DNA of 27,934 bases from a virus, in the UHGV virus genome UHGV-0188207; one strand, written 5' to 3'. Position 1 is the first letter of the stretch. Each line of letters begins with the position of its first letter. The notes below the pieces were generated by a model, which did not search any database, was not told the DNA's origin, and saw only the letters and a program-made list of their open reading frames with translations. Shown one piece after another: positions 2,643 to 14,208 of the stretch. The translations under genes were made by a program, and so were the position numbers.

Positions 2643-3659
2643 TTACCTCAAATTAAATAAAGGATTTTTAGTTACGGCATCTTCTAAATGGTCTGGGGCG
2701 AAGTGTGCATAGACCATGGTCATTTTTATATCTGAATGTCCTAGGATATCCCGCAAAACCAATATGTTTCCACCATTCATCATAAAATGGCTAGCGAATG
2801 TATGACGCAGAACGTGAGTACATTGACCCTCTGGCAGATCGATACCAGCCCGCTTTACTGCACGCTCAAAGGCTTTTCTGCATGGGGTGAATAACTTCCC
2901 CCTATTCTTAGGCAGTTCTTCATATAAATCCTTAGAAATAGGCACAGTTCGGTTTTTCTTGCCTTTGGTCTTGGTATAAGTGATACGGTATTTTGATACC
3001 TGATGACTCTGCAGGTTTTCGGCTTCGCTCCAGCGTGCGCCGGTGGCCAGGCATATTTTTGCAATCAAAAGCAGGCTGGAGCTTTGAGAATCGGCGCAGG
3101 CATCCAGCAGACGTTTAATTTCTTCCGGGGTCAGGAACGCCAATTCACTCTCAGCAATTTTAAATGTTGGCAGCCCAGCAAGCGGGTTGGGGGCTGACCA
3201 GTGGCCCAGCTTTTTCAGTGTACCAAAAACAGATGATAGATTGCGCTGTTCAAGGTTTACCGTGCGGGGCTTAACGGGCGACATAAACGTGCCATCTTCA
3301 TTTCGTACTTCACCTTTTAACCGTGCTTCGCGGTATTTCGTAAAGTCACCGGCTGTCAGTTCTGAGGCGATGGGGTCGCCTAGACCATTACAGATAATTC
3401 TAAGTTTCGCCATGAGGCGCTTGGGGTCTGCGAGTGTCTGACCATACAGGGAATACCAAAGCTCAATTAATTCTGATAGGTGTCGCCGATCATCCTTTTC
3501 TCCTAACCACGGTTTTTTGTTCACTTCTTCCATTGTGAAGCTTTCAAATGCAATGGCTTCGCCTTTGGTAGCAAATTGCTTACGCACGCGCTTACCATTG
3601 CGTCCATTGGGATAGCACTCACACAACCATTTTCCGTTCGGCTGTTTTCTGATGGTCAT
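2643..3659 (-). CDS. int: Tyrosine integrase, P2/186 family
   Basis: 338-aa ORF with C-terminal catalytic region HVLRHTFASHFMMNGGNILVLRDILGHSDIKMTMVYAHFAPDHL (R..H..R..Y tyrosine recombinase signature); adjacent to the att core. Confidence 0.9.
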   Translation of the reverse strand: MTIRKQPNGKWLCECYPNGRNGKRVRKQFATKGEAIAFESFTMEEVNKKPWLGEKDDRRHLSELIELWYSLYGQTLADPKRLMAKLRIICNGLGDPIASELTAGDFTKYREARLKGEVRNEDGTFMSPVKPRTVNLEQRNLSSVFGTLKKLGHWSAPNPLAGLPTFKIAESELAFLTPEEIKRLLDACADSQSSSLLLIAKICLATGARWSEAENLQSHQVSKYRITYTKTKGKKNRTVPISKDLYEELPKNRGKLFTPCRKAFERAVKRAGIDLPEGQCTHVLRHTFASHFMMNGGNILVLRDILGHSDIKMTMVYAHFAPDHLEDAVTKNPLFNLR

Positions 3660-3662
3660 AAG

Positions 3663-4295
3663 TTAGAGGTTCTTGATTACTTTGACTGCACGTCCTACGA
3701 CTTCCACATCATCTACAGAACATTCAAATGAAGTGTCATCTTGGCTAACTACTATTTTGTTTCCGGGTATGCGCGCAATTTTGACGATGCTTTTAACTCC
3801 GTCCATATCGACTAACCAGAAGCCATTACTGACTTGTTTAACGGACGTATCCACTACAAAGCTATTATTAGCTGTTTTAACAAATAAAGCGTTGGATGAG
3901 TCACCATCGAGCAGGCTGCTATCAAGAAGAATTTCATCACTTGCCTGCAGTTCGCCGTTCTTCAGTTCAACACGTTTGATGCTAGGAGCAACGATCTTAG
4001 AAAGTGGTCTTACAGTGACGGGAGGTTCATTTTTGAGATTTGTTTCTTCGTTCTCACACGCATACATATCTCCTTGACCAGTAGCCAGCCATAGAAGGGA
4101 AGCTCCTGTTTCAAGGGCACATTGAATTACCCATTCGGCAGGAAAGCTATCCCTTAAGTATCTGTTAGCCATAGTGCTTTTGGATACTTCCAGATGTTCG
4201 CAGAGCTGCTGTCGTGAGCTGAAGTTGTAAGCCTTAATAAGCCTGTTAATTGCATCGCGCCCACCACTATCATTTCCCGCTTTGATTAAACTCAT
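3663..4295 (-). CDS. cI: Immunity repressor CI (186-like CI with HTH N-domain)
   Basis: ORF MSLIKAGNDSGGRDAINRLIKAYNFSSRQQLCEHLEVSKSTMANRYLRD...; 3-bp gap to int; divergent from the early lytic operon; start set at the ATG with a GAGG RBS. Confidence 0.7.
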   Translation of the reverse strand: MSLIKAGNDSGGRDAINRLIKAYNFSSRQQLCEHLEVSKSTMANRYLRDSFPAEWVIQCALETGASLLWLATGQGDMYACENEETNLKNEPPVTVRPLSKIVAPSIKRVELKNGELQASDEILLDSSLLDGDSSNALFVKTANNSFVVDTSVKQVSNGFWLVDMDGVKSIVKIARIPGNKIVVSQDDTSFECSVDDVEVVGRAVKVIKNL

Positions 4296-4306
4296 AATCA
4301 AACCTC

Positions 4307-4686: not shown

Positions 4687-5196
4687 ATGTTTGATTATAA
4701 GATTTCCAAACACCCGCATTTTGATGAAGCCTGTAGAGCTTTTGCACTTCGTCACAATATGGCGAAGCTGGCAGAACGTGCAGGAATGAATGTCCAGACA
4801 CTGCGAAACAAACTCAACCCAGATCAACCGCATCAGCTCAATGCGCCAGAAATCTGGCTGCTTACCGATCTGACTGAAGATTCAACGCTGATAGATGGTT
4901 TTCTGGCACAGATTCACTGCCTACCATGTGTACCGATTAATGAGGTGGCAAAAGAGAAGCTGCCGCATTACGTCATGAGTGCAACTGCAGAGATAGGGCG
5001 TGTCGCGGCAGGTGCGGTTTCTGGCGATGTAAAAACCAGTGCAGGCCGTCGTGATGCGATCAGCAGCATTAACTCTGTTACACGACTGATGGCGCTGGCT
5101 GCTGTTTCATTGCAGGCCCGTTTACAGGCTAATCCTGCGATGGCGAGTGCGGTTGATACCGTGACTGGCCTCGGTGCTTCATTCGGTTTGCTGTGA
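4687..5196 (+). CDS. cII: CII-like regulatory protein (186 CII family)
   Basis: 169-aa ORF (the size I recall for 186 CII) directly after the apl-like gene; N-terminal HTH-like region. Confidence 0.6.
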   Translation: MFDYKISKHPHFDEACRAFALRHNMAKLAERAGMNVQTLRNKLNPDQPHQLNAPEIWLLTDLTEDSTLIDGFLAQIHCLPCVPINEVAKEKLPHYVMSATAEIGRVAAGAVSGDVKTSAGRRDAISSINSVTRLMALAAVSLQARLQANPAMASAVDTVTGLGASFGLL

Positions 5197-6786: not shown

Positions 6787-7640
6787 GCACCATCCTGAAA
6801 TGGGCGGGAAATAAAACCGCCATTATGTCCGAACTGAAAAAACACCTTCCTGCTGGCCCGCGACTGGTTGAACCTTTCGCGGGTTCCTGTGCTGTGATGA
6901 TGGAGACGGATTACCCCAGCTATCTGGTTGCGGATATTAATCCTGATTTAATCAACCTCTATAAAAAGGTTGCCGCTGATTGTGAATCGTTTATATCTCG
7001 CGCCAGAGTTTTATTTGAGATCGCAAACAGGGAGGTGGCTTATTACAACATAAGGCAGGAGTTTAATTACTCCACTGAAATTACTGATTTCATGAAAGCG
7101 GTATATTTCCTGTATCTCAATCGTCATGGTTACCGTGGATTATGTCGCTATAACAAGAGCGGGCATTTCAACATTCCGTACGGTAATTATAAAAATCCGT
7201 ATTTCCCTGAAAAGGAAATTCGCGCATTTGCAGAGAAAGCCCAGCGTGCAACGTTTATCTGCGCAAGCTTTGATGAAACGCTGGCGATGCTGCAGGTGGG
7301 GGATGTGGTGTATTGCGATCCGCCGTATGACGGTACGTTTTCCGGCTATCACACTGATGGTTTCACTGAAGATGACCAGTATCACCTGGCATCCGTTCTT
7401 GAACATCGGTCATCAGAAGGACATCCGGTCATTGTTTCTAACAGTGATACATCCCTGATCCGTTCGCTGTATCGCAATTTTACTCACCACTACATCAAGG
7501 CAAAACGCAGCATCGGTGTAGCAGCTGGTGAGAGTAAATCTGCAACAGAAATCATCGCTGTTTCCGGGCCGCGCTGCTGGGTGGGATTTGATCCTTCGCG
7601 TGGCGTGGATAGTTCTGCCGTGTACGGAGTGCGTGCATGA
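6783..7640 (+). CDS. dam: DNA adenine methyltransferase (Dam-like, D12 class)
   Basis: [18 protein letters not shown]...FAGSCAV...[11 protein letters not shown] (DPPY catalytic motif and FxGxG AdoMet motif); ATGA-coupled to flanking genes. Confidence 0.8.
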
Positions 7641-10051
7641 GCCATGCTGATATGAACAACTGCAGCGGCTTTAACGAGGTCGCCGCAGCATTCTCATGGA
7701 ACAGCCCGAAAAAGGCCATTAACCCTTATCTGGACCCGGCGGAAGTTGCGCCGGTTTCTGCGCTTTCAAACCTGATCACTCTGTACGCTACTGATAACGA
7801 GCAGGAACAACTGCGCCGCGAGGCACTGAGTGATCAGGTCTGGGAGCGTTATTTCTTTAATGAATCCCGTGATCCTGTCCAACGCGAAATGGAGCAGGAT
7901 AAGCTCATTAGCCGGGCAAAGATGGCGCATGAGCAGCAGCGTTTTAATCCGGACATGGTCATTCTGGCCGACGTCAACGCCCAGCCTTCCCATATCAGCA
8001 AGCCGCTGATGCAACGTATTGAATATTTCAGCAGCCTGGGCAGGCCAAAGGCTTATTCCCGCTATTTGCGTGAGACGATTAAGCCATGTCTGGAACGACT
8101 GGAGCATGTACGCGACAGCCAGCTATCTGCATCTTTTCGTTTTATGGCAAGCCATGAAGGGCTGGATGGTCTGCTGATCCTGCCTGAAATGAGTCAGGAT
8201 CAGGTGAAACGCCTGTCTACCCTTGTCGCTGCGCATATGAGCATGTGTCTTGATGCCGCTTGTGGTGATTTGTACGCCTCCGATGATGTTAAGCCAGAAG
8301 AAATCCGCAAGACATGGGAAAAGGTGGCTGCAGAAACCCTGCGACTGGATGTCATACCGCCTGCGTTTGAGCAACTCCGCCGGAAAAGAAACCGCCGCAA
8401 ACCTGTGCCCTATGAACTCATTCCGGGTTCGCTGGCGCGTATGCTGTGCGCCGACTGGTGGTATCGGAAATTATGGAAGATGCGTTGCGAATGGCGGGAA
8501 GAGCAGTTGCGTGCTGTCTGCCTGGTCAGCAAAAAAGCATCTCCCTATGTCAGCTATGAAGCCGTGATGCATAAACGTGAGCAGCGCCGTAAGTCGCTGG
8601 AGTTTTTCCGTTCTCATGAACTGGTGAACGAAGACGGCGACACGCTGAACATGGAGGATGTGGTAAACGCCAGCAGCAGCAACCCGGCGCATCGCCGCAA
8701 TGAGATGATGGCCTGTGTTAAAGGCCTGGAGCTTATCGCGGAAATGCGTGGTGACTGCGCCGTTTTCTACACCATCACCTGTCCGTCACGTTTCCATTCC
8801 ACGCTAAATAACGGCAGGCCAAACCCGACCTGGACCAACGCGACAGTAAGACAAAGCAGCGATTATCTGGTCGGCATGTTTGCTGCATTTCGTAAGGCTA
8901 TGCACAAAGCCGGGTTGCGCTGGTATGGCGTGCGGGTGGCTGAGCCGCATCATGACGGCACAGTTCACTGGCACCTGTTGTGTTTCATGCGTAAAAAAGA
9001 CCGCCGCGCCATTACTGCATTGTTGCGTAAGTTTGCCATCCGTGAAGACCGCGAGGAGCTGGGCAATAACACGGGGCCACGCTTTAAGTCTGAGCTGATA
9101 AACCCGCGCAAAGGAACGCCGACAAGCTACATTGCGAAATATATCAGTAAGAATATTGACGGGCGTGGTCTGGCTGGCGAGATCAGTAAGGAAACGGGTA
9201 AATCCCTGCGTGATAACGCTGAATACGTTAATGCCTGGGCGTCTCTGCATCGTGTTCAGCAATTCCGCTTCTTTGGCATTCCGGGGCGTCAGGCTTACCG
9301 TGAACTGCGATTGCTGGCTGGTCAGGCGGCAAGGCAACAGGGTGACAAAAAAGCAGGTGCGCCGGTACTGGATAACCCGCGCCTTGATGCCATCCTGGCT
9401 GCTGCTGATGCTGGTTGTTTTGCCACCTACATCATGAAGCAGGGCGGCGTACTGGTTCCCCGCAAATATCACCTCATCAGAACCGCTTATGAAATCAACG
9501 AAGAGCCAACCGCCTATGGCGATCACGGTATTCGTATTTATGGCATCTGGTCACCCATTGCAGAGGGCAAGATCTGCACTCATGCAGTGAAGTGGAAAAT
9601 GGTTCGTAAGGCCGTTGACGTTCAGGAGGCGGCAGCCGACCAGGGCGCTTGCGCCCCTTGGACTCGTGGCAATAACTGTCCCCTTGCTGAAAATTTGAAC
9701 CAACAGGAGAAAGATAAATCAGCTGATGGGGACCCCAGAACGGACATTACCCGCATGGATGACAAGGTGTTGCACGATTACCTGCACAGTATGAACAAAA
9801 AGGAGCGCCGGGAATTGGCTGCAAGGTTACGTCTGGTGAAACCGAAACGGCGTAGAGACTACAAACAGCGAATTACAGACCATCAACGACAGCAGCTCGT
9901 CTATGAACTGAAATCCAGAGGATTTGATGGCAGCGAGAAAGAGGTCGATTTACTCCTTCGCGGCGGCAGTATTCCGTCAGGAGCAGGCCTGCGTATCTTC
10001 TATCGGAACCAGCGTTTGCAGGAAGATGATAAGTGGCGGAACCTGTATTAA
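7637..10051 (+). CDS. A: Replication initiation endonuclease gpA (rolling-circle HUH nuclease)
   Basis: 804-aa ORF with the HUH motif [11 protein letters not shown] and the size/position typical of P2/186 gene A. Confidence 0.85.
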
Positions 10052-10144
10052 TTACGCTGGTTAACAATTCGTGCTCTTAATAATATCAGGCATATCAGGC
10101 TGATAAGCGTAAAAAAAACGTTTTACATCAGTAAGATTATTATA

Positions 10145-10164
10145 TACTGTAAATATAAACAGTG
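10145..10164. promoter_or_regulatory. LexA (SOS) box TACTGTAAATATAAACAGTG
   Basis: CTGT-N8-ACAG with an AT-rich spacer, close to consensus TACTGTATATATATACAGTA; overlaps a candidate promoter (TTTACA at 10122-10127) about 40 bp upstream of the ORF at 10206. Confidence 0.65.
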
Positions 10165-10205
10165 CTTATACATACAGTATTGCGTGTGGTGTCATAGGAG
10201 GAAAG

Positions 10206-10394
10206 ATGCAGGACTATTTTTTGGAGTCTTTGAAGCTCCAGCGCATTGATTTTTTTCTTAAGCTTGTAGCGGCTAGTGAGTGCGATGATGAAGAGAAGCG
10301 GCTTGCTATCCAGTGGGTTTCGGAGCTGACCGATGAGTTAATGGCGAAAATCCGTACTCATGAGTACAACCGTTCAATGGATCTCCCCGGTTAG
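10206..10394 (+). CDS. Small hypothetical protein downstream of the LexA box (candidate SOS-induced factor, Tum-like antirepressor position)
   Basis: 62-aa ORF with a strong AGGAGG RBS; the assignment is by position only. Confidence 0.4.
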   Translation: MQDYFLESLKLQRIDFFLKLVAASECDDEEKRLAIQWVSELTDELMAKIRTHEYNRSMDLPG

Positions 10395-10979
10395 GCTTAG
10401 GAACGTTGCTGGCGTTAGGACTTGATTCTGACGCTAGCAAGGTTGATCAACGAGCCATGCGAGGCGTTAGTCATGGGCAAAAAAATAGTAACTTCCAGAT
10501 TTTGCTTCGTGCCAGGTATTGAGTAGTTTTATCGCCAGAGGGGCTGTTAGCGCTCAAACTACTAATGGAGCCACACCTTAGATGAGTGATTTGGCTTAAG
10601 CTATGATTATATAGTTTCGCTGTACGGCGGCCTTGCTTTTTATTGAAGCGACCAGACTGGAACAACGGCGAAAGGAGACTAACGATACGCACCAGTTTTT
10701 TGAAAAGGTACAGTTATCTAGATTGGTTGCCAATTTTCGTTGAAACCTGACATACCATTAGGTCATTGCTTTAGAAAAATTAATACTTGATGTGAGAATT
10801 GCTTCAAAACATCTAGAATTAAAGTTTCTTTACTAGTATGCTTCATCACTTGGTCGTTGGGTTGAGTGCAAAAGCTAAGGCTGATGCCCAGTACGCTATC
10901 CGCATTATTGCCAGAGAACCGATTCGAAACCGGAATCTGGCAGAGCATGGGCGCAAGTGCTGGCTTCCCAACGGCCTCG

Positions 10980-11948
10980 TTATTTATAATATGCTGACTT
11001 CAAAACCACTCGTCTTTCAACCTGCTGTGATAGCATTACAGCGTTAGTCCAATCTTTTGGATACCTTATTTCTTCTATAACACGAATATAAGCACATACT
11101 TTATTTTTTCCCTCTCCTTTGGCATAAGTAACCTCTAGATTATTAAATTTCAATAAGTGCTCTCTTCTTTGGTAAGTAAAACAGCCGTAATCACGGACAT
11201 CAGAAGAAGTAATAGCATGAGTTGAAGGAAACCGAACTAGTAAATTTCTCAAGTAGGGAATAATGTCCAAACTCGTTGCTTTGTTTTCTTCTCTGCGACT
11301 CTTTCTGAACATATGTCTCCAACCCAGCCGTGTAAGCTCGATTTTCCCAAGCACCGGAGATGTGATTTCTTTCTGTTCAGAATAACGTTTTTTAACAAAC
11401 GCTCGCCGATTATTAAGTAGTGAGTTTCTTCTTCTTACATGGATTCCTTTTGCTCCAGTTTCACCTGCACGTACCATGGACATACAGCGAGCCAGGTCAA
11501 ACCGTGTGGCCGGAGTGATTAAGTGATATTCTCCATAAGTTTGGTTTTTAAGGGTAGTGTTTGGATGTATATAGGCCCAAAATGCTTTACGATTAGTTCT
11601 GTCAACCCAAACGACACATATATGGTGAGTTGTCCTTTTGGCTGCTTTTTTTGCGGCCGAATTTAATACAAAACCTTTCTCTAATAAATGACCATAAGTT
11701 GCCCCTGATTTAACTTGCGACAATATAAGCATTCTTTCTTTTGATGCCCATGGATGTTCGAAGGATAATATTAAATCTATTTTTGAATTGTCGTCTTCCC
11801 TGGAACCCCAGTGCCCCTCTCCTCTACAAGCAAGAATGAATTGACTCATTGCATAAGATTCGGCGTCACTGCCGTTAACTGAGTTAAACTGTCTTGTTTC
11901 TAGCACAGTTGGTATTGGTCGTGATGCAAGTAAACTGAAAGATCCCAC
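10980..11948 (-). CDS. Hypothetical protein in the AT-rich accessory region (candidate defence/cargo gene)
   Basis: 322-aa ORF with a GTG start and GGAGA RBS; low GC compared with the phage core; possible nuclease-like D...QxK pattern (KIDLILSFEH...LSQVKSG), which is very weak evidence. Confidence 0.55.
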   Translation of the reverse strand: MGSFSLLASRPIPTVLETRQFNSVNGSDAESYAMSQFILACRGEGHWGSREDDNSKIDLILSFEHPWASKERMLILSQVKSGATYGHLLEKGFVLNSAAKKAAKRTTHHICVVWVDRTNRKAFWAYIHPNTTLKNQTYGEYHLITPATRFDLARCMSMVRAGETGAKGIHVRRRNSLLNNRRAFVKKRYSEQKEITSPVLGKIELTRLGWRHMFRKSRREENKATSLDIIPYLRNLLVRFPSTHAITSSDVRDYGCFTYQRREHLLKFNNLEVTYAKGEGKNKVCAYIRVIEEIRYPKDWTNAVMLSQQVERRVVLKSAYYK

Positions 11949-12240: not shown

Positions 12241-12385
12241 TGCACCTCAAAGTAACTCTGGTGCATACCTATGCTGCATGAAAATGAATGATCGCTAGTG
12301 GATCGTTTATGTCGAAGCCTGCCAGTTCTGACGGGCTTTTGCTTATGTTATGCAACTGCATGAAAACCACTACACAAAGCGGGCA

Positions 12386-12404
12386 GGCGTGGCGGGGATA
12401 CGAG
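12386..12404. other. Candidate cos (cohesive end) core GGCGTGGCGGGGATACGAG
   Basis: First 13 nt GGCGTGGCGGGGA match the 186/P2 cos 19-mer as I recall it (GGCG[T/A]GGCGGGGAAAGCA[T/C]); the 3' six positions diverge. Confidence 0.4.
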
Positions 12405-12556
12405 CGCGCGCTAAGTCATATAAGAGTTATATATTGATTTGATTGCTGGACATGCATACAGTATCGCTCTATCATCTAATAAATCTTAGAGTATTTGACA
12501 ATGTTTGGATAAAATGGAACCTAACTTATTCATAATCCGCTAAACAGGGATGTCAG

Positions 12557-13471
12557 ATGCCATACCAATTGGTAGAGCTTAGCCCCGTAGCTAACGATCT
12601 TGAACAGTTAGGAACCAAAGAGAAGTTTTGGTTCTATTTCTCCGATGACACTGTAAATTTGCAGTTGTTTAAGTACTCTAGGCCAGGTACTGGCGAGCAT
12701 TGGTCTGAAAAGTGTGCTGCTGAGTTATGTCATTTGCTTAACATTCCACATGCTAGCTATGATTTGGCGCGATACAATGGTCGATTCGGTGTGGTGACTC
12801 AGAATATCATTCCATCTGGTTTCCGGATGGTAATGGGAAATGAAGTGCTTCACAGTTCGACATTCGATTATCCTGGGCCTTTACAAGCCGGGGAAAAGCC
12901 GGTAAGGGTCAGAGAACACACTGTCACAAGGGTATTGGGTTGTTTGGATAGGGAATCTATCAAGCCTCCTCCGAGTGTATATGATCTAACCGGGCTAAAT
13001 GCAGCAGATGTATTTTGTGGATATTTGATGCTCGATGCACTTGTGAGTAATCAAGATCGCCATCATGAAAATTGGGCGATCATGCTTAACAATGAAACTG
13101 GTGAGCAGTTTTTGTGTCCAACATACGATCATGCCGCTAGTTTAGGAAGGGAGATGTTAGATGATGAGCGTAACGAACGGCTTAATACTAAAGATAAAAA
13201 TCGACAAATCCCATGTTTTGTAAGAAAAGCTCGCTCTGAGCTATTCAAAGCAAAAACTGATAAAAAGCCCTTGCTGACCGTTGAAGCATTTCAACATGCA
13301 GTTGAAGGGAGAGTTGCCGCTCGCGACCATTGGTTAGGTAAGTTGAGCGTTTTAACAGAAGATTCCATTACAGATGTGTTTAACCAAGTGCCTTCATCGT
13401 GTATATCCGACAGTGCACGTAGATTTGCAACGTTAATGGTAATGGAAAATCGCAGAAGGTTACTAGAATGA
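12557..13471 (+). CDS. HipA-family (HipT-like) Ser/Thr kinase core lacking the HipA N-terminal subdomain
   Basis: 304-aa ORF with LGTKEKF (cf. HipA GAQEK loop), DALVSNQDRHHENW (catalytic loop, cf. HipA GATDGHAKNF) and CPTYDHAAS (cf. HipA PFYDIIS); AGGGA RBS; motif comparison from memory only. Confidence 0.6.
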   Translation: MPYQLVELSPVANDLEQLGTKEKFWFYFSDDTVNLQLFKYSRPGTGEHWSEKCAAELCHLLNIPHASYDLARYNGRFGVVTQNIIPSGFRMVMGNEVLHSSTFDYPGPLQAGEKPVRVREHTVTRVLGCLDRESIKPPPSVYDLTGLNAADVFCGYLMLDALVSNQDRHHENWAIMLNNETGEQFLCPTYDHAASLGREMLDDERNERLNTKDKNRQIPCFVRKARSELFKAKTDKKPLLTVEAFQHAVEGRVAARDHWLGKLSVLTEDSITDVFNQVPSSCISDSARRFATLMVMENRRRLLE

Positions 13472-14208
13472 CTAATACAAACTCCGTTTACGTCGCATGG
13501 CAGGCACCAGATACCAGAGACTGGCATGTTGTTGGTAACTTGCAAGAGCGCAAATCGGGGTATGTTTTCAGGTATACCAAAGGTGCTCTTAAATCTACTA
13601 AATTTACAAAGTTTAGCGGCATGAGTGATGTTCGTGAAACTTATGTTTCGGAAGAATTGTTTCCTCTTTTTAAAAATCGCCTTTTATCACCGAGACGTCC
13701 AGAGTATCCGAGTTTCATTAAATGGCTTGGATTTGAAGAAGATAAGGTAAATCCTATCGATATTCTTGCTCGCTCGGGAGGCTTACGAAGCACTGATCAG
13801 CTGCAGATTTTCAAAAAAATTGATGTTGATTCTGATGGTAACTTTGAGCATTTTTTCTTCTTACATGGACTTGGTTACTTAAATAGCTTAGCTAATGCTC
13901 GTGTATCTGAATTGAAACCGGGGCAAATTTTGCGTCTTTGCTTGGATCTTCAAAATGAATACGATGGGGATGCTGTTGTCGTTCGTGCAGATAAACCAGC
14001 TGAAATCGTTGGTTACTGCCCTAGGTATTTAAGTAATGATATCAAGAAGATGTTATTGGATGATCCAAAATCAATCACTTTAACGGTCGAAAAGATTAGC
14101 GATGATGCTCCTCATAACTATCGGTTATTATGTAAATTATCAGGAGTACTAAGCCAAGCCTGTCAATCGACGCTGATTCCTCAGGATGAGTTTGAACCTA
14201 TTGAGTAA
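13468..14208 (+). CDS. Protein with C-terminal HIRAN-like domain and an N-terminal region resembling the HipA N-subdomain (HipS-like)
   Basis: 246-aa ORF, ATGA overlap with the kinase gene; C-terminal DGDAVVVRADKPAEIVGYCPRYLSNDIKKML resembles the HIRAN signature; N-terminal FPLFKNRLLSPRRP / NPIDILARSGGLRSTD resemble HipA FNFFDNLLPDSP / FDLLSEIGRDSVG. Confidence 0.5.
   Translation: MTNTNSVYVAWQAPDTRDWHVVGNLQERKSGYVFRYTKGALKSTKFTKFSGMSDVRETYVSEELFPLFKNRLLSPRRPEYPSFIKWLGFEEDKVNPIDILARSGGLRSTDQLQIFKKIDVDSDGNFEHFFFLHGLGYLNSLANARVSELKPGQILRLCLDLQNEYDGDAVVVRADKPAEIVGYCPRYLSNDIKKMLLDDPKSITLTVEKISDDAPHNYRLLCKLSGVLSQACQSTLIPQDEFEPIE

What the first reader, a model, noticed from the sequence alone, without database searches (positions are those of the whole stretch)
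10122..10394. LexA box controlling a small ORF just downstream of replication gene A
A near-consensus SOS box (TACTGTAAATATAAACAGTG, 10145-10164) overlaps a candidate promoter and sits about 40 bp upstream of a 62-aa ORF with a strong AGGAGG RBS. The CI here looks 186-like rather than a RecA-cleavable lambda-type repressor, and phage 186 is induced through the LexA-controlled Tum antirepressor encoded after gene A. This module may be the SOS-induction switch of the prophage. The ORF is shorter than 186 Tum as I recall it, so it may be a distinct small antirepressor or a truncated remnant abutting the accessory insertion.
Basis: partly seen in the sequence, partly recalled or inferred. Interest (0 to 1): 0.45.

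Follow-up and report, generated by a model that had tools for sequence, protein, structure and literature searches.

The report
SOS-controlled Tum antirepressor of a 186-like prophage
This is the DNA-damage switch of a 186/P2-like E. coli prophage, a LexA-repressed promoter driving a 62-residue Tum antirepressor; it is real and well conserved, and it belongs to a system already shown to work in close relatives.

Summary
A 20-bp LexA box lies at 10145-10164. It is the only site in the window within 3 mismatches of the consensus (0 of 100 shuffles had one). It overlaps a TTTACA-17-TACTGT promoter that has the same layout as phage 186 p95. An AGGAGG ribosome-binding site and a 62-aa ORF (10206-10394) follow.

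The ORF is a real gene: dN/dS is 0.01-0.18 against 27 relatives where it could be computed. It is full length, not a truncated remnant. It is 89% identical to the 62-aa tum gene of E. coli HS prophage DuoHS, whose deletion abolishes mitomycin C induction. It is homologous to the N-terminal half of 186 Tum and to PSP3 TumA (hhalign probability 95.8%). The resident CI is 186-type and has no S24 autopeptidase domain.

- A second, overlapping SOS box at 10160-10179 gives a colicin-like double operator.
- The usual downstream dinI-like gene is absent here.
- A conserved hairpin at 10406-10440 closes the module.
- Tum sequence does not co-diverge with CI.

Verdict: a new member of a known kind, of low to moderate interest. 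A side finding may be more interesting. A conserved LexA box also precedes the PDC-M03 candidate defence operon at 12444-12463.

The parts
10122..10127 (+). -35 hexamer TTTACA of the tum promoter (equivalent of 186 p95)
   Evidence: It lies 17 nt upstream of TACTGT. TT[TC]ACA is conserved at 16-18 nt in 32 of the 37 box-carrying homologous loci, while the spacers vary. 186 p95 is annotated as TTCACA-18-TACTGT.
10145..10150 (+). -10 hexamer TACTGT, which is also the left half of SOS box 1
   Evidence: The hexamer and layout are the same as the annotated -10 of 186 p95. The generic scan did not call it.
10145..10164 (.). SOS (LexA) box 1, TACTGTAAATATAAACAGTG
   Evidence: It is the only site in the window within 3 mismatches of the consensus, and 0 of 100 shuffles had one. 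It is the best site in the window by an approximate heterology index. It is identical in DuoHS and Klebsiella relatives. A box is present in 37 of 38 homologous loci.
10160..10179 (.). SOS box 2, CAGTGCTTATACATACAGTA, offset 15 bp from box 1 and overlapping it (GTG-N10-CAG type)
   Evidence: It is the third-best locus in the window by approximate HI. It is conserved at the same offset in 22 of 38 loci, all close relatives. It fits the same composite pattern as the ColE1 cea double operator.
10196..10201 (+). Shine-Dalgarno AGGAGG
   Evidence: It lies 4 nt before the ATG. (A)GGAGG(G) is conserved in the relatives.
10206..10394 (+). tum (short, TumA-type antirepressor), 62 aa, predicted two-helix hairpin
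   Evidence: - 89% identical to DuoHS Tum.
- phrog_698, E 1e-36, with cross-hits shared with 186 Tum.
- hhalign probability 95.8% to 186 Tum N-terminus, PSP3 TumA and Yersinia tum.
- dN/dS 0.01-0.18.
- AF2 pLDDT 90, helices at 2-23 and 28-58.
10406..10440 (+). Conserved 15-bp-stem hairpin directly after tum; candidate transcript end or stabiliser and the boundary of the conserved module
   Evidence: Folding 10385-10470 gives -34.8 kcal/mol, z -3.7. The hairpin is kept in the five dinI-less variants compared, with some compensatory change. In the best-covering hits listed, homology with the E. coli relatives ends at about 10443. It has no U-tract, so terminator function is inferred only.
3663..4301 (-). 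cI, 186-type immunity repressor, the presumed target of Tum
   Evidence: Pfam Phage_CI_repr (E 8e-33) and Phage_CI_C (E 2.5e-40), with no Peptidase_S24. It is 32% identical to 186 CI and 40% to DuoHS CI.

Best explanation
This is the SOS-induction module of a 186-like (Peduoviridae) E. coli prophage.

In an undamaged lysogen, LexA dimers occupy two overlapping SOS boxes (10145-10164 and 10160-10179). The boxes cover the -10 region and the start of the transcript of a promoter that lies just after replication gene A, so the 62-aa tum gene is silent.

DNA damage activates RecA and LexA cleaves itself. The promoter then fires and Tum, a two-helix hairpin protein, accumulates. Tum binds the 186-type CI repressor and stops it binding its operators. 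This derepresses the early lytic promoter and starts excision and lytic growth. When SOS subsides, LexA shuts tum off again.

The double box probably makes repression tighter and induction later than a single box would, as in colicin operons. The hairpin after the stop codon probably ends or stabilises the monocistronic transcript and insulates the downstream cargo genes.

What is shown here: the sequence elements, their conservation, the homology, coding selection, and the CI type.
What is shown in relatives: the tum and LexA requirement for induction (DuoHS), and CI binding and inhibition (186 Tum).
What is inferred for this locus: LexA binding, Tum-CI binding, the effect of the second box, and the role of the hairpin.
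For: - Elements and statistics.
- Operator conservation. Box 1 is identical and box 2 near-identical in DuoHS, whose Tum is 89% identical.
- Function in DuoHS. Delta-tum and lexA(Ind-) both abolish mitomycin C-induced lysis (PMC12055606).
- Function in 186. Tum is expressed from the LexA-repressed p95 promoter and inhibits CI (PMC7708051; record annotation).
- The N-terminal half carries the activity. The Tum N-terminal half is the antirepressor part and is a separate gene in PSP3 and Fels-2 (PMC3121763). PSP3 annotates tumA and tumB.
- Homology. There are shared PHROG hits in the same register. hhalign gives probability 95.8%, E 7e-9 over residues 4-43.
- Comparative footprint. A LexA box is present in 37 of 38 loci, a -35 hexamer in 32 of those 37, and an SD in nearly all, across Enterobacterales and beyond.
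- Coding selection: dN/dS 0.01-0.18.
- A 186-type CI lies 4-8 kb upstream in most of the loci searched, and in this window.
- The double-box geometry is identical to the ColE1 cea operator. The literature says two overlapping boxes bind two LexA dimers and prevent untimely expression (PMC2994835).
Against: - There is no experiment on this exact locus.
- Pairwise BLASTP against 186 Tum and PSP3 TumA finds nothing. That homology rests on profiles only.
- The resident CI is only 40% identical to the DuoHS CI, so Tum-CI compatibility here is assumed, not shown.
- Box 2 has GTG rather than CTG in its left half and a poor approximate HI of about 10.9. Its occupancy is inferred from the colicin analogy and from conservation.
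- The generic promoter scan does not call the promoter.
- The hairpin lacks a U-tract.
Confidence: 0.82

Rival explanations
1. The module is a functional SOS-induced Tum, but it is not matched to the resident CI because the prophage is a mosaic. It would then be ineffective on this prophage, or would act mainly in trans on other 186-like prophages in the cell.
For: Tum and CI do not co-diverge: Spearman rho 0.23, p 0.29, n=24. E. coli SCU-115 has an identical Tum but a CI only 59% identical to this one. DuoHS Tum is 89% identical while its CI is 40% identical. Trans-acting antirepressors are known for Gifsy prophages (PMC3121763).
Against: The same near-invariant Tum sits next to many CI types, yet it stays under strong purifying selection everywhere. 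That fits a broad-specificity Tum recognising conserved CI features better than it fits widespread mismatches. The CI N-terminal domain keeps a conserved core across all partners.
Confidence: 0.1
2. The ORF is an SOS-induced small protein with a role other than antirepression, for example modulation of RecA or LexA, or host physiology. Some databases name it 'levan regulatory protein'.
For: No Pfam, NCBIfam or PADLOC family matches it. The PHROG families it hits are labelled 'unknown function'. The fold is a generic helical hairpin with no informative structural neighbour. UniRef uses the name 'Levan regulatory protein'.
Against: The 89%-identical DuoHS gene is required for prophage induction but not for SOS reporter activation. 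It is homologous to the antirepressor half of 186 Tum. It lacks any DinI-like part. In the phage records and genome loci examined where the neighbouring genes were checked, the gene lies after gene A of a P2/186-like element, and most genome loci carry a 186-type CI upstream.
Confidence: 0.05
3. The ORF is a decayed remnant of a fused Tum-DinI gene, truncated by insertion of the accessory genes, and is no longer functional.
For: 186 Tum is 146 aa with a DinI-like C-terminal half. Many relatives have a dinI-like gene 10-14 nt downstream, which is missing here. The homology break with dinI-linked versions falls in the last three codons.
Against: 62 aa is the full length of the functional DuoHS Tum and of most family members. 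The dinI-less form, with the same ...LPG/LLG end and the same hairpin, recurs in other genera and in other E. coli prophages. dN/dS is 0.01-0.18.
Confidence: 0.02
4. The LexA box is a chance AT-rich palindrome, and the ORF is expressed constitutively or not at all.
For: The 16-bp core alone occurs by chance in 26% of shuffles. The generic scan calls no promoter here.
Against: 0 of 100 shuffles had a 20-mer match. The box is conserved in 37 of 38 loci even where the flanks have diverged. Induction is LexA-dependent in DuoHS, which has an identical box 1.
Confidence: 0.01

Closest known systems
tum of E. coli HS prophage DuoHS (ECHS_RS04495; Phollow study, Nat Microbiol 2025, PMC12055606)
   Same: The length is the same (62 aa) and identity is 89%. 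The position after gene A is the same. SOS box 1 and the -35 hexamer are identical and box 2 is near-identical. Experiments show it is required, together with cleavable LexA, for mitomycin C induction.
   Different: DuoHS has a dinI-like gene 10 nt downstream, and this window has none. The last three residues differ (VIS against LPG). The resident CI is only 40% identical, so the immunity type is different.
Tum of coliphage 186 (LexA-repressed p95-tum; Shearwin, Brumby and Egan 1998; Lamont et al. 1989)
   Same: The genome position and promoter/operator layout are the same, with -10 TACTGT forming the left half of the LexA box. The N-terminal roughly 45 residues are homologous. The target is a 186-type CI.
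   Different: 186 Tum is 146 aa with a fused DinI-like C-terminal half and internal starts. It has a single SOS box and an 18-nt leader. Identity is only about 20% and pairwise BLAST finds nothing. In 186, orf97 follows in the same operon.
tumA/tumB of Salmonella phage PSP3 (and the split tum of Fels-2)
   Same: The architecture is split, with a roughly 60-aa upstream gene carrying the antirepressor/UV-induction function. A LexA box lies upstream.
   Different: PSP3 TumA is a distant subfamily member, about 12% identical in the alignment. It is followed by tumB (DinI-like), which is absent here, and it has a single SOS box.
Double overlapping SOS boxes of colicin operons (for example ColE1 cea)
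   Same: The composite geometry is identical, CTGT-N9-CAGTG-N9-ACAG, and by my own comparison of the two reported sequences 25 of 31 positions match. Both control a gene whose expression kills the cell.
   Different: In ColE1 the boxes lie just downstream of the -10; here box 1 includes the -10. The regulated products are unrelated. Cooperative LexA binding has not been tested here.
LexA-controlled antirepressors of Gifsy/Fels-1 prophages (GfoA, GftA) and N15 AntC
   Same: The logic is the same: LexA represses a small antirepressor that inactivates a non-cleavable repressor.
   Different: The protein families, the repressor family and the gene order (dinI first in the Gifsy prophages) are all different.

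Membership tests
Tum/TumA-type SOS antirepressor module of 186-like phages | The gene lies immediately downstream of replication gene A in a P2/186-like genome | tested here: met
   Gene A (Phage_GPA, E 2e-127) ends at 10051 and the ORF starts at 10206. The arrangement is the same in 186, PSP3, DuoHS and Klebsiella phages.
Tum/TumA-type SOS antirepressor module of 186-like phages | A promoter overlapped by a LexA (SOS) box | tested here: met
   Box 1 is unique in the window. It coincides with the -10 as in the annotated 186 p95. A box is conserved in 37 of 38 loci. This is sequence evidence only; LexA binding was not measured.
Tum/TumA-type SOS antirepressor module of 186-like phages | Sequence homology to the N-terminal (antirepressor) half of 186 Tum | tested here: met
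   There are reciprocal PHROG cross-hits in the same register: phrog_698, 8554 and 1993. hhalign gives probability 95.8%, E 7e-9. Pairwise BLASTP is negative.
Tum/TumA-type SOS antirepressor module of 186-like phages | A cognate 186-type CI repressor that is not RecA-cleavable | tested here: met
   Pfam Phage_CI_repr and Phage_CI_C are present and Peptidase_S24 is not. It aligns with 186 CI and DuoHS CI.
Tum/TumA-type SOS antirepressor module of 186-like phages | A DinI-like C-terminal domain (186) or an adjacent dinI-like tumB gene (PSP3, Fels-2, DuoHS) | tested here: not met
   tblastn finds no DinI-like sequence within 2.5 kb downstream, and the ORF has no DinI family hit. This is not required for antirepression: the PSP3 upstream gene alone carries that activity. 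About a third of the genome loci also lack it.
Tum/TumA-type SOS antirepressor module of 186-like phages | The protein binds CI and prevents operator binding, and it is required for SOS induction | not testable with these tools
   This is shown for 186 Tum and, genetically, for the 89%-identical DuoHS Tum. Nothing has been measured for this locus.
Colicin-type double SOS operator | Two 20-bp SOS boxes offset by 15 bp, so that the 16-bp cores share one base pair | tested here: met
   The window (10147-10177) and ColE1 (5063-5093) both match CTGT-N9-CAGTG-N9-ACAG with 0 mismatches. The pattern is conserved in 22 of 38 loci.
Colicin-type double SOS operator | Cooperative occupancy by two LexA dimers, giving tight and late induction | not testable with these tools
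   This is stated for colicins in the literature (PMC2994835). It has not been measured here.
DinI family (RecA filament modulator) | Match to DinI models | tested here: not met
   The ORF has no NCBIfam PRK10597 hit and no phrog_189 hit, whereas the 186 Tum C-terminal half and the Klebsiella downstream gene both match.
Lambda-type induction (RecA-stimulated repressor autocleavage) | A repressor with an S24 peptidase domain | tested here: not met
   CI has no Peptidase_S24 hit.

The most novel reading that the evidence does not exclude
The short Tum of this subfamily may be a generalist antirepressor. It stays 73-100% identical (over the first 59 residues) while the neighbouring 186-type CI ranges from 31 to 88% identity, with no co-divergence. 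It may therefore recognise the conserved core of the CI N-terminal DNA-binding domain rather than the parts that determine immunity. One SOS-induced Tum could then cross-induce heteroimmune 186-like prophages in the same cell. The colicin-style double SOS box would set a high damage threshold for that collective decision.
Probability: 0.3. Interest if true: 0.5.

Novelty: new member of a known kind. Interest (0 to 1): 0.22.

Why it matters
It assigns a function to a protein that databases call 'hypothetical' or 'levan regulatory protein'. A copy at least 90% identical of the gene A 3' end plus tum segment is present in about 1,100 of 5,426 complete E. coli genomes.

It predicts that this prophage, with its cargo of candidate defence genes, is mobilised by DNA-damaging antibiotics.

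The double SOS box and the lack of Tum/CI co-divergence give testable ideas about the induction threshold and about cross-talk between prophages. The basic mechanism is already established in phage 186, PSP3 and DuoHS.

Tried and rejected
- Pairwise BLASTP of the ORF against 186 Tum and PSP3 TumA found no alignment. Profile methods were needed.
- Pfam, NCBIfam and PADLOC scans of the ORF found no family. The only Pfam hit was a sub-threshold chance match to PPP1R21_C.
- A PDB sequence search with the family profile found nothing.
- Foldseek of the AF2 model against the PDB returned only generic helical hairpins, all with E above 1.
- An Rfam scan of the whole window found nothing.
- The generic promoter/terminator scan did not call the tum promoter. 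It found only a weak terminator-like site at 10617-10640.
- A literature search for 'tumA'/'PSP3' returned only irrelevant papers. Bunny et al. 2002 (PMC151935) is not held, so the split-tum statement is cited second-hand from PMC3121763.
- The heterology index was computed with a matrix I rebuilt from about 28 E. coli SOS boxes recalled from memory. It gives different values from the published HI (mostly lower; for example umuDC 1.3 against 2.77), so only ranks within the window are used.
- The longer 96-101 aa gene calls in some databases (start MNVKKRF...) were rejected. That extension covers the promoter and operator, and in this window it has no in-frame start codon after an upstream stop.
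- I took the 160-bp element conserved in about 1,590 E. coli genomes (12253-12415) for a possible RNA or regulatory element. It turned out to be the cos region.

Full report
**Context.** The window is a 186/P2-like (Peduoviridae) prophage of E. coli.
- The tum region is 99.8% identical to E. coli SCU-115.
- About 1,100 of 5,426 complete E. coli genomes carry a 90-95% identical copy of the segment spanning the end of gene A and tum.
- Gene order: int (2643-3659, minus strand), cI (3663-4301, minus strand), an apl-like gene, cII, several small early genes, a DNA adenine methylase (dam-like) gene, gene A (7637-10051), the small ORF (10206-10394), accessory genes, then portal and terminase on the minus strand and the late genes.
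- Gene A matches Pfam Phage_GPA with E 2e-127.

**Observation.**
- The -35-like hexamer TTTACA is at 10122-10127.
- The SOS box TACTGTAAATATAAACAGTG is at 10145-10164.
- AGGAGG is at 10196-10201 and the ATG is at 10206.
- The ORF is 62 codons and ends at 10394.

The minimal core CTGT-N8-ACAG is not significant on its own: 0.3 are expected per window, and 26 of 100 shuffles had one. The 20-mer consensus with up to 3 mismatches matches only here, and no shuffle produced a match. I also scored the window with a heterology-index matrix that I rebuilt from recalled E. coli SOS boxes. It is approximate and gives different values from the published HI (mostly lower), so I use ranks only. On that scale this is the best site in the window.

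**Promoter.** The generic sigma-70 scan does not call a promoter here, because TACTGT is a poor -10. The curated phage 186 record annotates p95 as TTCACA-18-TACTGT, with the LexA box starting at the same TACTGT. That is the layout seen here (TTTACA-17-TACTGT). I compared 38 homologous loci: phage records, E. coli genomes, and 30 further species, mostly Enterobacterales.
- TT[TC]ACA sits 16-18 nt upstream of the box in 32 of the 37 box-carrying loci, although the spacer sequences differ.
- A LexA box is present in 37 of the 38 loci.
- A GGAGG-type ribosome-binding site precedes the start codon.

This phylogenetic footprint is the strongest in-silico evidence that the operator is functional.

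**A second box.** A second SOS-like box, CAGTGCTTATACATACAGTA (10160-10179), lies 15 bp downstream of box 1 and overlaps it.
- It is the third-best locus in the window on the approximate index.
- It is conserved at the same offset in 22 of 38 loci. All 22 belong to the close (phrog_698-type) subfamily, which also has a leader about 25 nt longer.
- The composite CTGT-N9-CAGTG-N9-ACAG occurs once in the window, with 0.02 expected.
- It has the same geometry as the double operator of the ColE1 colicin gene, CTGTATATAAAACCAGTGGTTATATGTACAG. By my own comparison of the two sequences, 25 of 31 positions match.

[quoted passage not shown] I infer the same purpose here. Phage 186 and PSP3 have a single box.

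**The ORF is a real, full-length gene.**
- Against 27 homologues at 69-97% amino-acid identity over the first 59 codons, dN/dS is 0.01-0.18; in two further comparisons dS was saturated.
- In this window the frame cannot start upstream of 10206. The 96-101 aa versions in some databases, which run through the promoter, are gene-calling artefacts.
- AlphaFold2 predicts a confident two-helix hairpin: pLDDT 90, with helices at 2-23 and 28-58. It has no informative structural neighbour.

**What the ORF is.**
- No Pfam, NCBIfam or PADLOC family matches.
- In PHROGs the ORF hits phrog_698 (E 1e-36), phrog_8554 (E 8e-8) and phrog_1993 (E 5e-3). Residues 1-61 of 186 Tum hit the same three families in the same register: E 1e-22 for phrog_1993, 1e-11 for phrog_8554 and 2e-5 for phrog_698.
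- A profile-profile comparison set the window-type family against 186 Tum (N-terminal half), PSP3 TumA and an annotated Yersinia phage 'tum protein'. It gives probability 95.8%, E 7e-9, over residues 4-43.
- Pairwise BLAST is negative.

The C-terminal half of 186 Tum is DinI-like. The literature states that 186 Tum is a fusion of antirepressor and DinI sequences. It also states that Fels-2 and PSP3 have the two halves as separate genes, and that the PSP3 upstream gene carries the antirepressor activity (PMC3121763). The PSP3 record names the genes tumA ('UV induction of prophage') and tumB.

The most direct evidence comes from E. coli HS. The tum gene of prophage DuoHS is locus ECHS_RS04495. 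It is a 62-aa gene directly after gene A. It is 89% identical to the window ORF, and its box 1 and -35 hexamer are identical. Deleting it in frame, or making LexA non-cleavable, abolishes mitomycin C-induced lysis and virion formation, while the SOS reporter still fires in the tum mutant (PMC12055606).

**The target.** The window CI has the Pfam Phage_CI_repr helix-turn-helix domain and the Phage_CI_C domain, as 186 CI does, and it has no S24 peptidase domain. It is 32% identical to 186 CI and 40% to DuoHS CI. In 186, Tum is the anti-CI factor expressed when the LexA-regulated p95 promoter is derepressed by SOS, and repression returns when LexA re-represses tum (PMC7708051).

**Differences from the best-known relatives.**
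1. There is no DinI-like sequence downstream here.
   - In DuoHS, the Klebsiella Kapieceevirus phages and 16 of the 30 genome loci, a 77-aa dinI-like gene starts 10-14 nt after tum.
   - The dinI-less form is not peculiar to this window. It recurs in other E. coli prophages and in other genera with the same ...LPG/LLG C-terminus.
2. In the dinI-less form a 15-bp-stem hairpin follows the stop codon (10406-10440).
   - Folding 10385-10470 gives -34.8 kcal/mol, z -3.7.
   - It is maintained in the five variants compared, with some compensatory change.
   - In the best-covering hits listed, homology with the E. coli relatives ends at about 10443, just after the hairpin.
   - It has no U-tract, so calling it a terminator is an inference. 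186 has a partial terminator, t95a, at the corresponding place.
3. Tum and CI do not co-diverge.
   - Across 24 loci, Tum identity to the window protein (73-100% over the first 59 residues) is uncorrelated with CI identity (31-88%): Spearman rho 0.23, p 0.29.
   - SCU-115 has an identical Tum but a CI only 59% identical.
   - The positions conserved among these CIs cluster in the N-terminal DNA-binding domain.
   - This allows, but does not prove, a broad-specificity Tum. That is the basis of the novel reading.

**Verdict on the finding.** The 'truncated remnant' alternative is rejected. The module is an orthologue of an experimentally characterised system, so it is a new member of a known kind and its interest is low to moderate. 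The extra details are modest refinements: the double SOS box, the absence of dinI, the boundary hairpin, and the Tum/CI decoupling.

**Side observations.**
- The cos site is at about 12386-12404 (GGCGTGGCGGGGATACGAG). Its first 13 nt are identical to the 186/PSP3 cos site. The flanking roughly 160 bp match the ends of linear P2-like phage records and about 1,590 E. coli genomes. Cargo therefore lies on both sides of cos.
- To the left of cos is an unclassified 322-aa ORF on the minus strand (10980-11948).
- To the right of cos is the PADLOC candidate system PDC-M03: a HipA_C-like protein (12557-13471, E 2e-122) and a protein that PGAP annotates as HIRAN-domain-containing (13468-14208, E 3e-93).
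- The second-best LexA site in the window is TGCTGGACATGCATACAGTA at 12444-12463. It lies about 95 bp upstream of PDC-M03A.
- A CTG-N10-CAG box at -107 to -131 is kept in 33 of 38 distinct upstream contexts of PDC-M03A homologues from IMG/VR. This holds down to 67% protein identity, where the flanks have diverged. A -10-like TATnnT, sometimes TGnTATAAT, follows about 9 nt later. This suggests an SOS-regulated candidate defence operon. I did not follow it further.

Noticed in passing
window 12444-12463 (with 12557-14208): A second strong LexA box, TGCTGGACATGCATACAGTA, lies about 95 bp upstream of the PADLOC candidate defence pair PDC-M03A (HipA_C-like) and PDC-M03B (PGAP: HIRAN domain-containing). 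A CTG-N10-CAG box at -107 to -131 is conserved in 33 of 38 distinct upstream contexts of homologues in IMG/VR, down to 67% protein identity, and a -10-like TATnnT follows it. This suggests an SOS-regulated defence candidate.
   Followed up: partly
window 12253-12415 (cos-like 19-mer at 12386-12404): A roughly 160-bp segment conserved in about 1,590 E. coli genomes and 108 phage records is the cos region. GGCGTGGCGGGGA matches the 186/PSP3 cos site, and the hits fall at the ends of linear phage records. Cargo genes therefore lie on both sides of cos, and PDC-M03 is inserted between cos and the portal gene.
   Followed up: yes
window 3663-4301 compared with 10206-10394; loci L003, L010-L038: Tum is far more conserved than its presumed target. 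Identical or 97%-identical Tum proteins sit beside CI repressors only 41-59% identical to this one, and there is no correlation across 24 loci. The conserved CI positions cluster in the N-terminal HTH domain.
   Followed up: partly
window 10406-10440: A conserved hairpin directly after the tum stop codon is present in the dinI-less variants compared, with some covariation. In the best-covering hits listed, homology with the roughly 1,100 E. coli relatives ends just after it, at the start of the variable cargo region.
   Followed up: partly
window 10980-11948 (minus strand): A 322-aa cargo ORF between tum and cos has no Pfam or PADLOC family. The only hit is a sub-threshold one to LPD3. PGAP annotates a shorter version as hypothetical.
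   Followed up: no
L042 (E. coli Nico21(DE3), a BL21 derivative) 2286-2718: The defective P2-like prophage of BL21-type strains has a broken cII and gene A. It still keeps an intact tum, the same protein as DuoHS (WP_001154431.1), plus a dinI-like gene, next to a retron St85-family cargo.
   Followed up: no
database records for the family (L001 4064-4354): The family is annotated everywhere as 'hypothetical protein' or 'levan regulatory (domain) protein'. It is often called with a false 25-40 aa N-terminal extension that runs through its own promoter and operator. No curated family (Pfam or NCBIfam) exists for the short Tum.
   Followed up: yes
L032 (Erwinia piriflorinigrans) upstream of 10001: This is the only homologous locus of 38 where box 1 has lost its right-half CAG (TACTGTTTATATAAACATAT). 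It may be a decaying or differently regulated copy.
   Followed up: no
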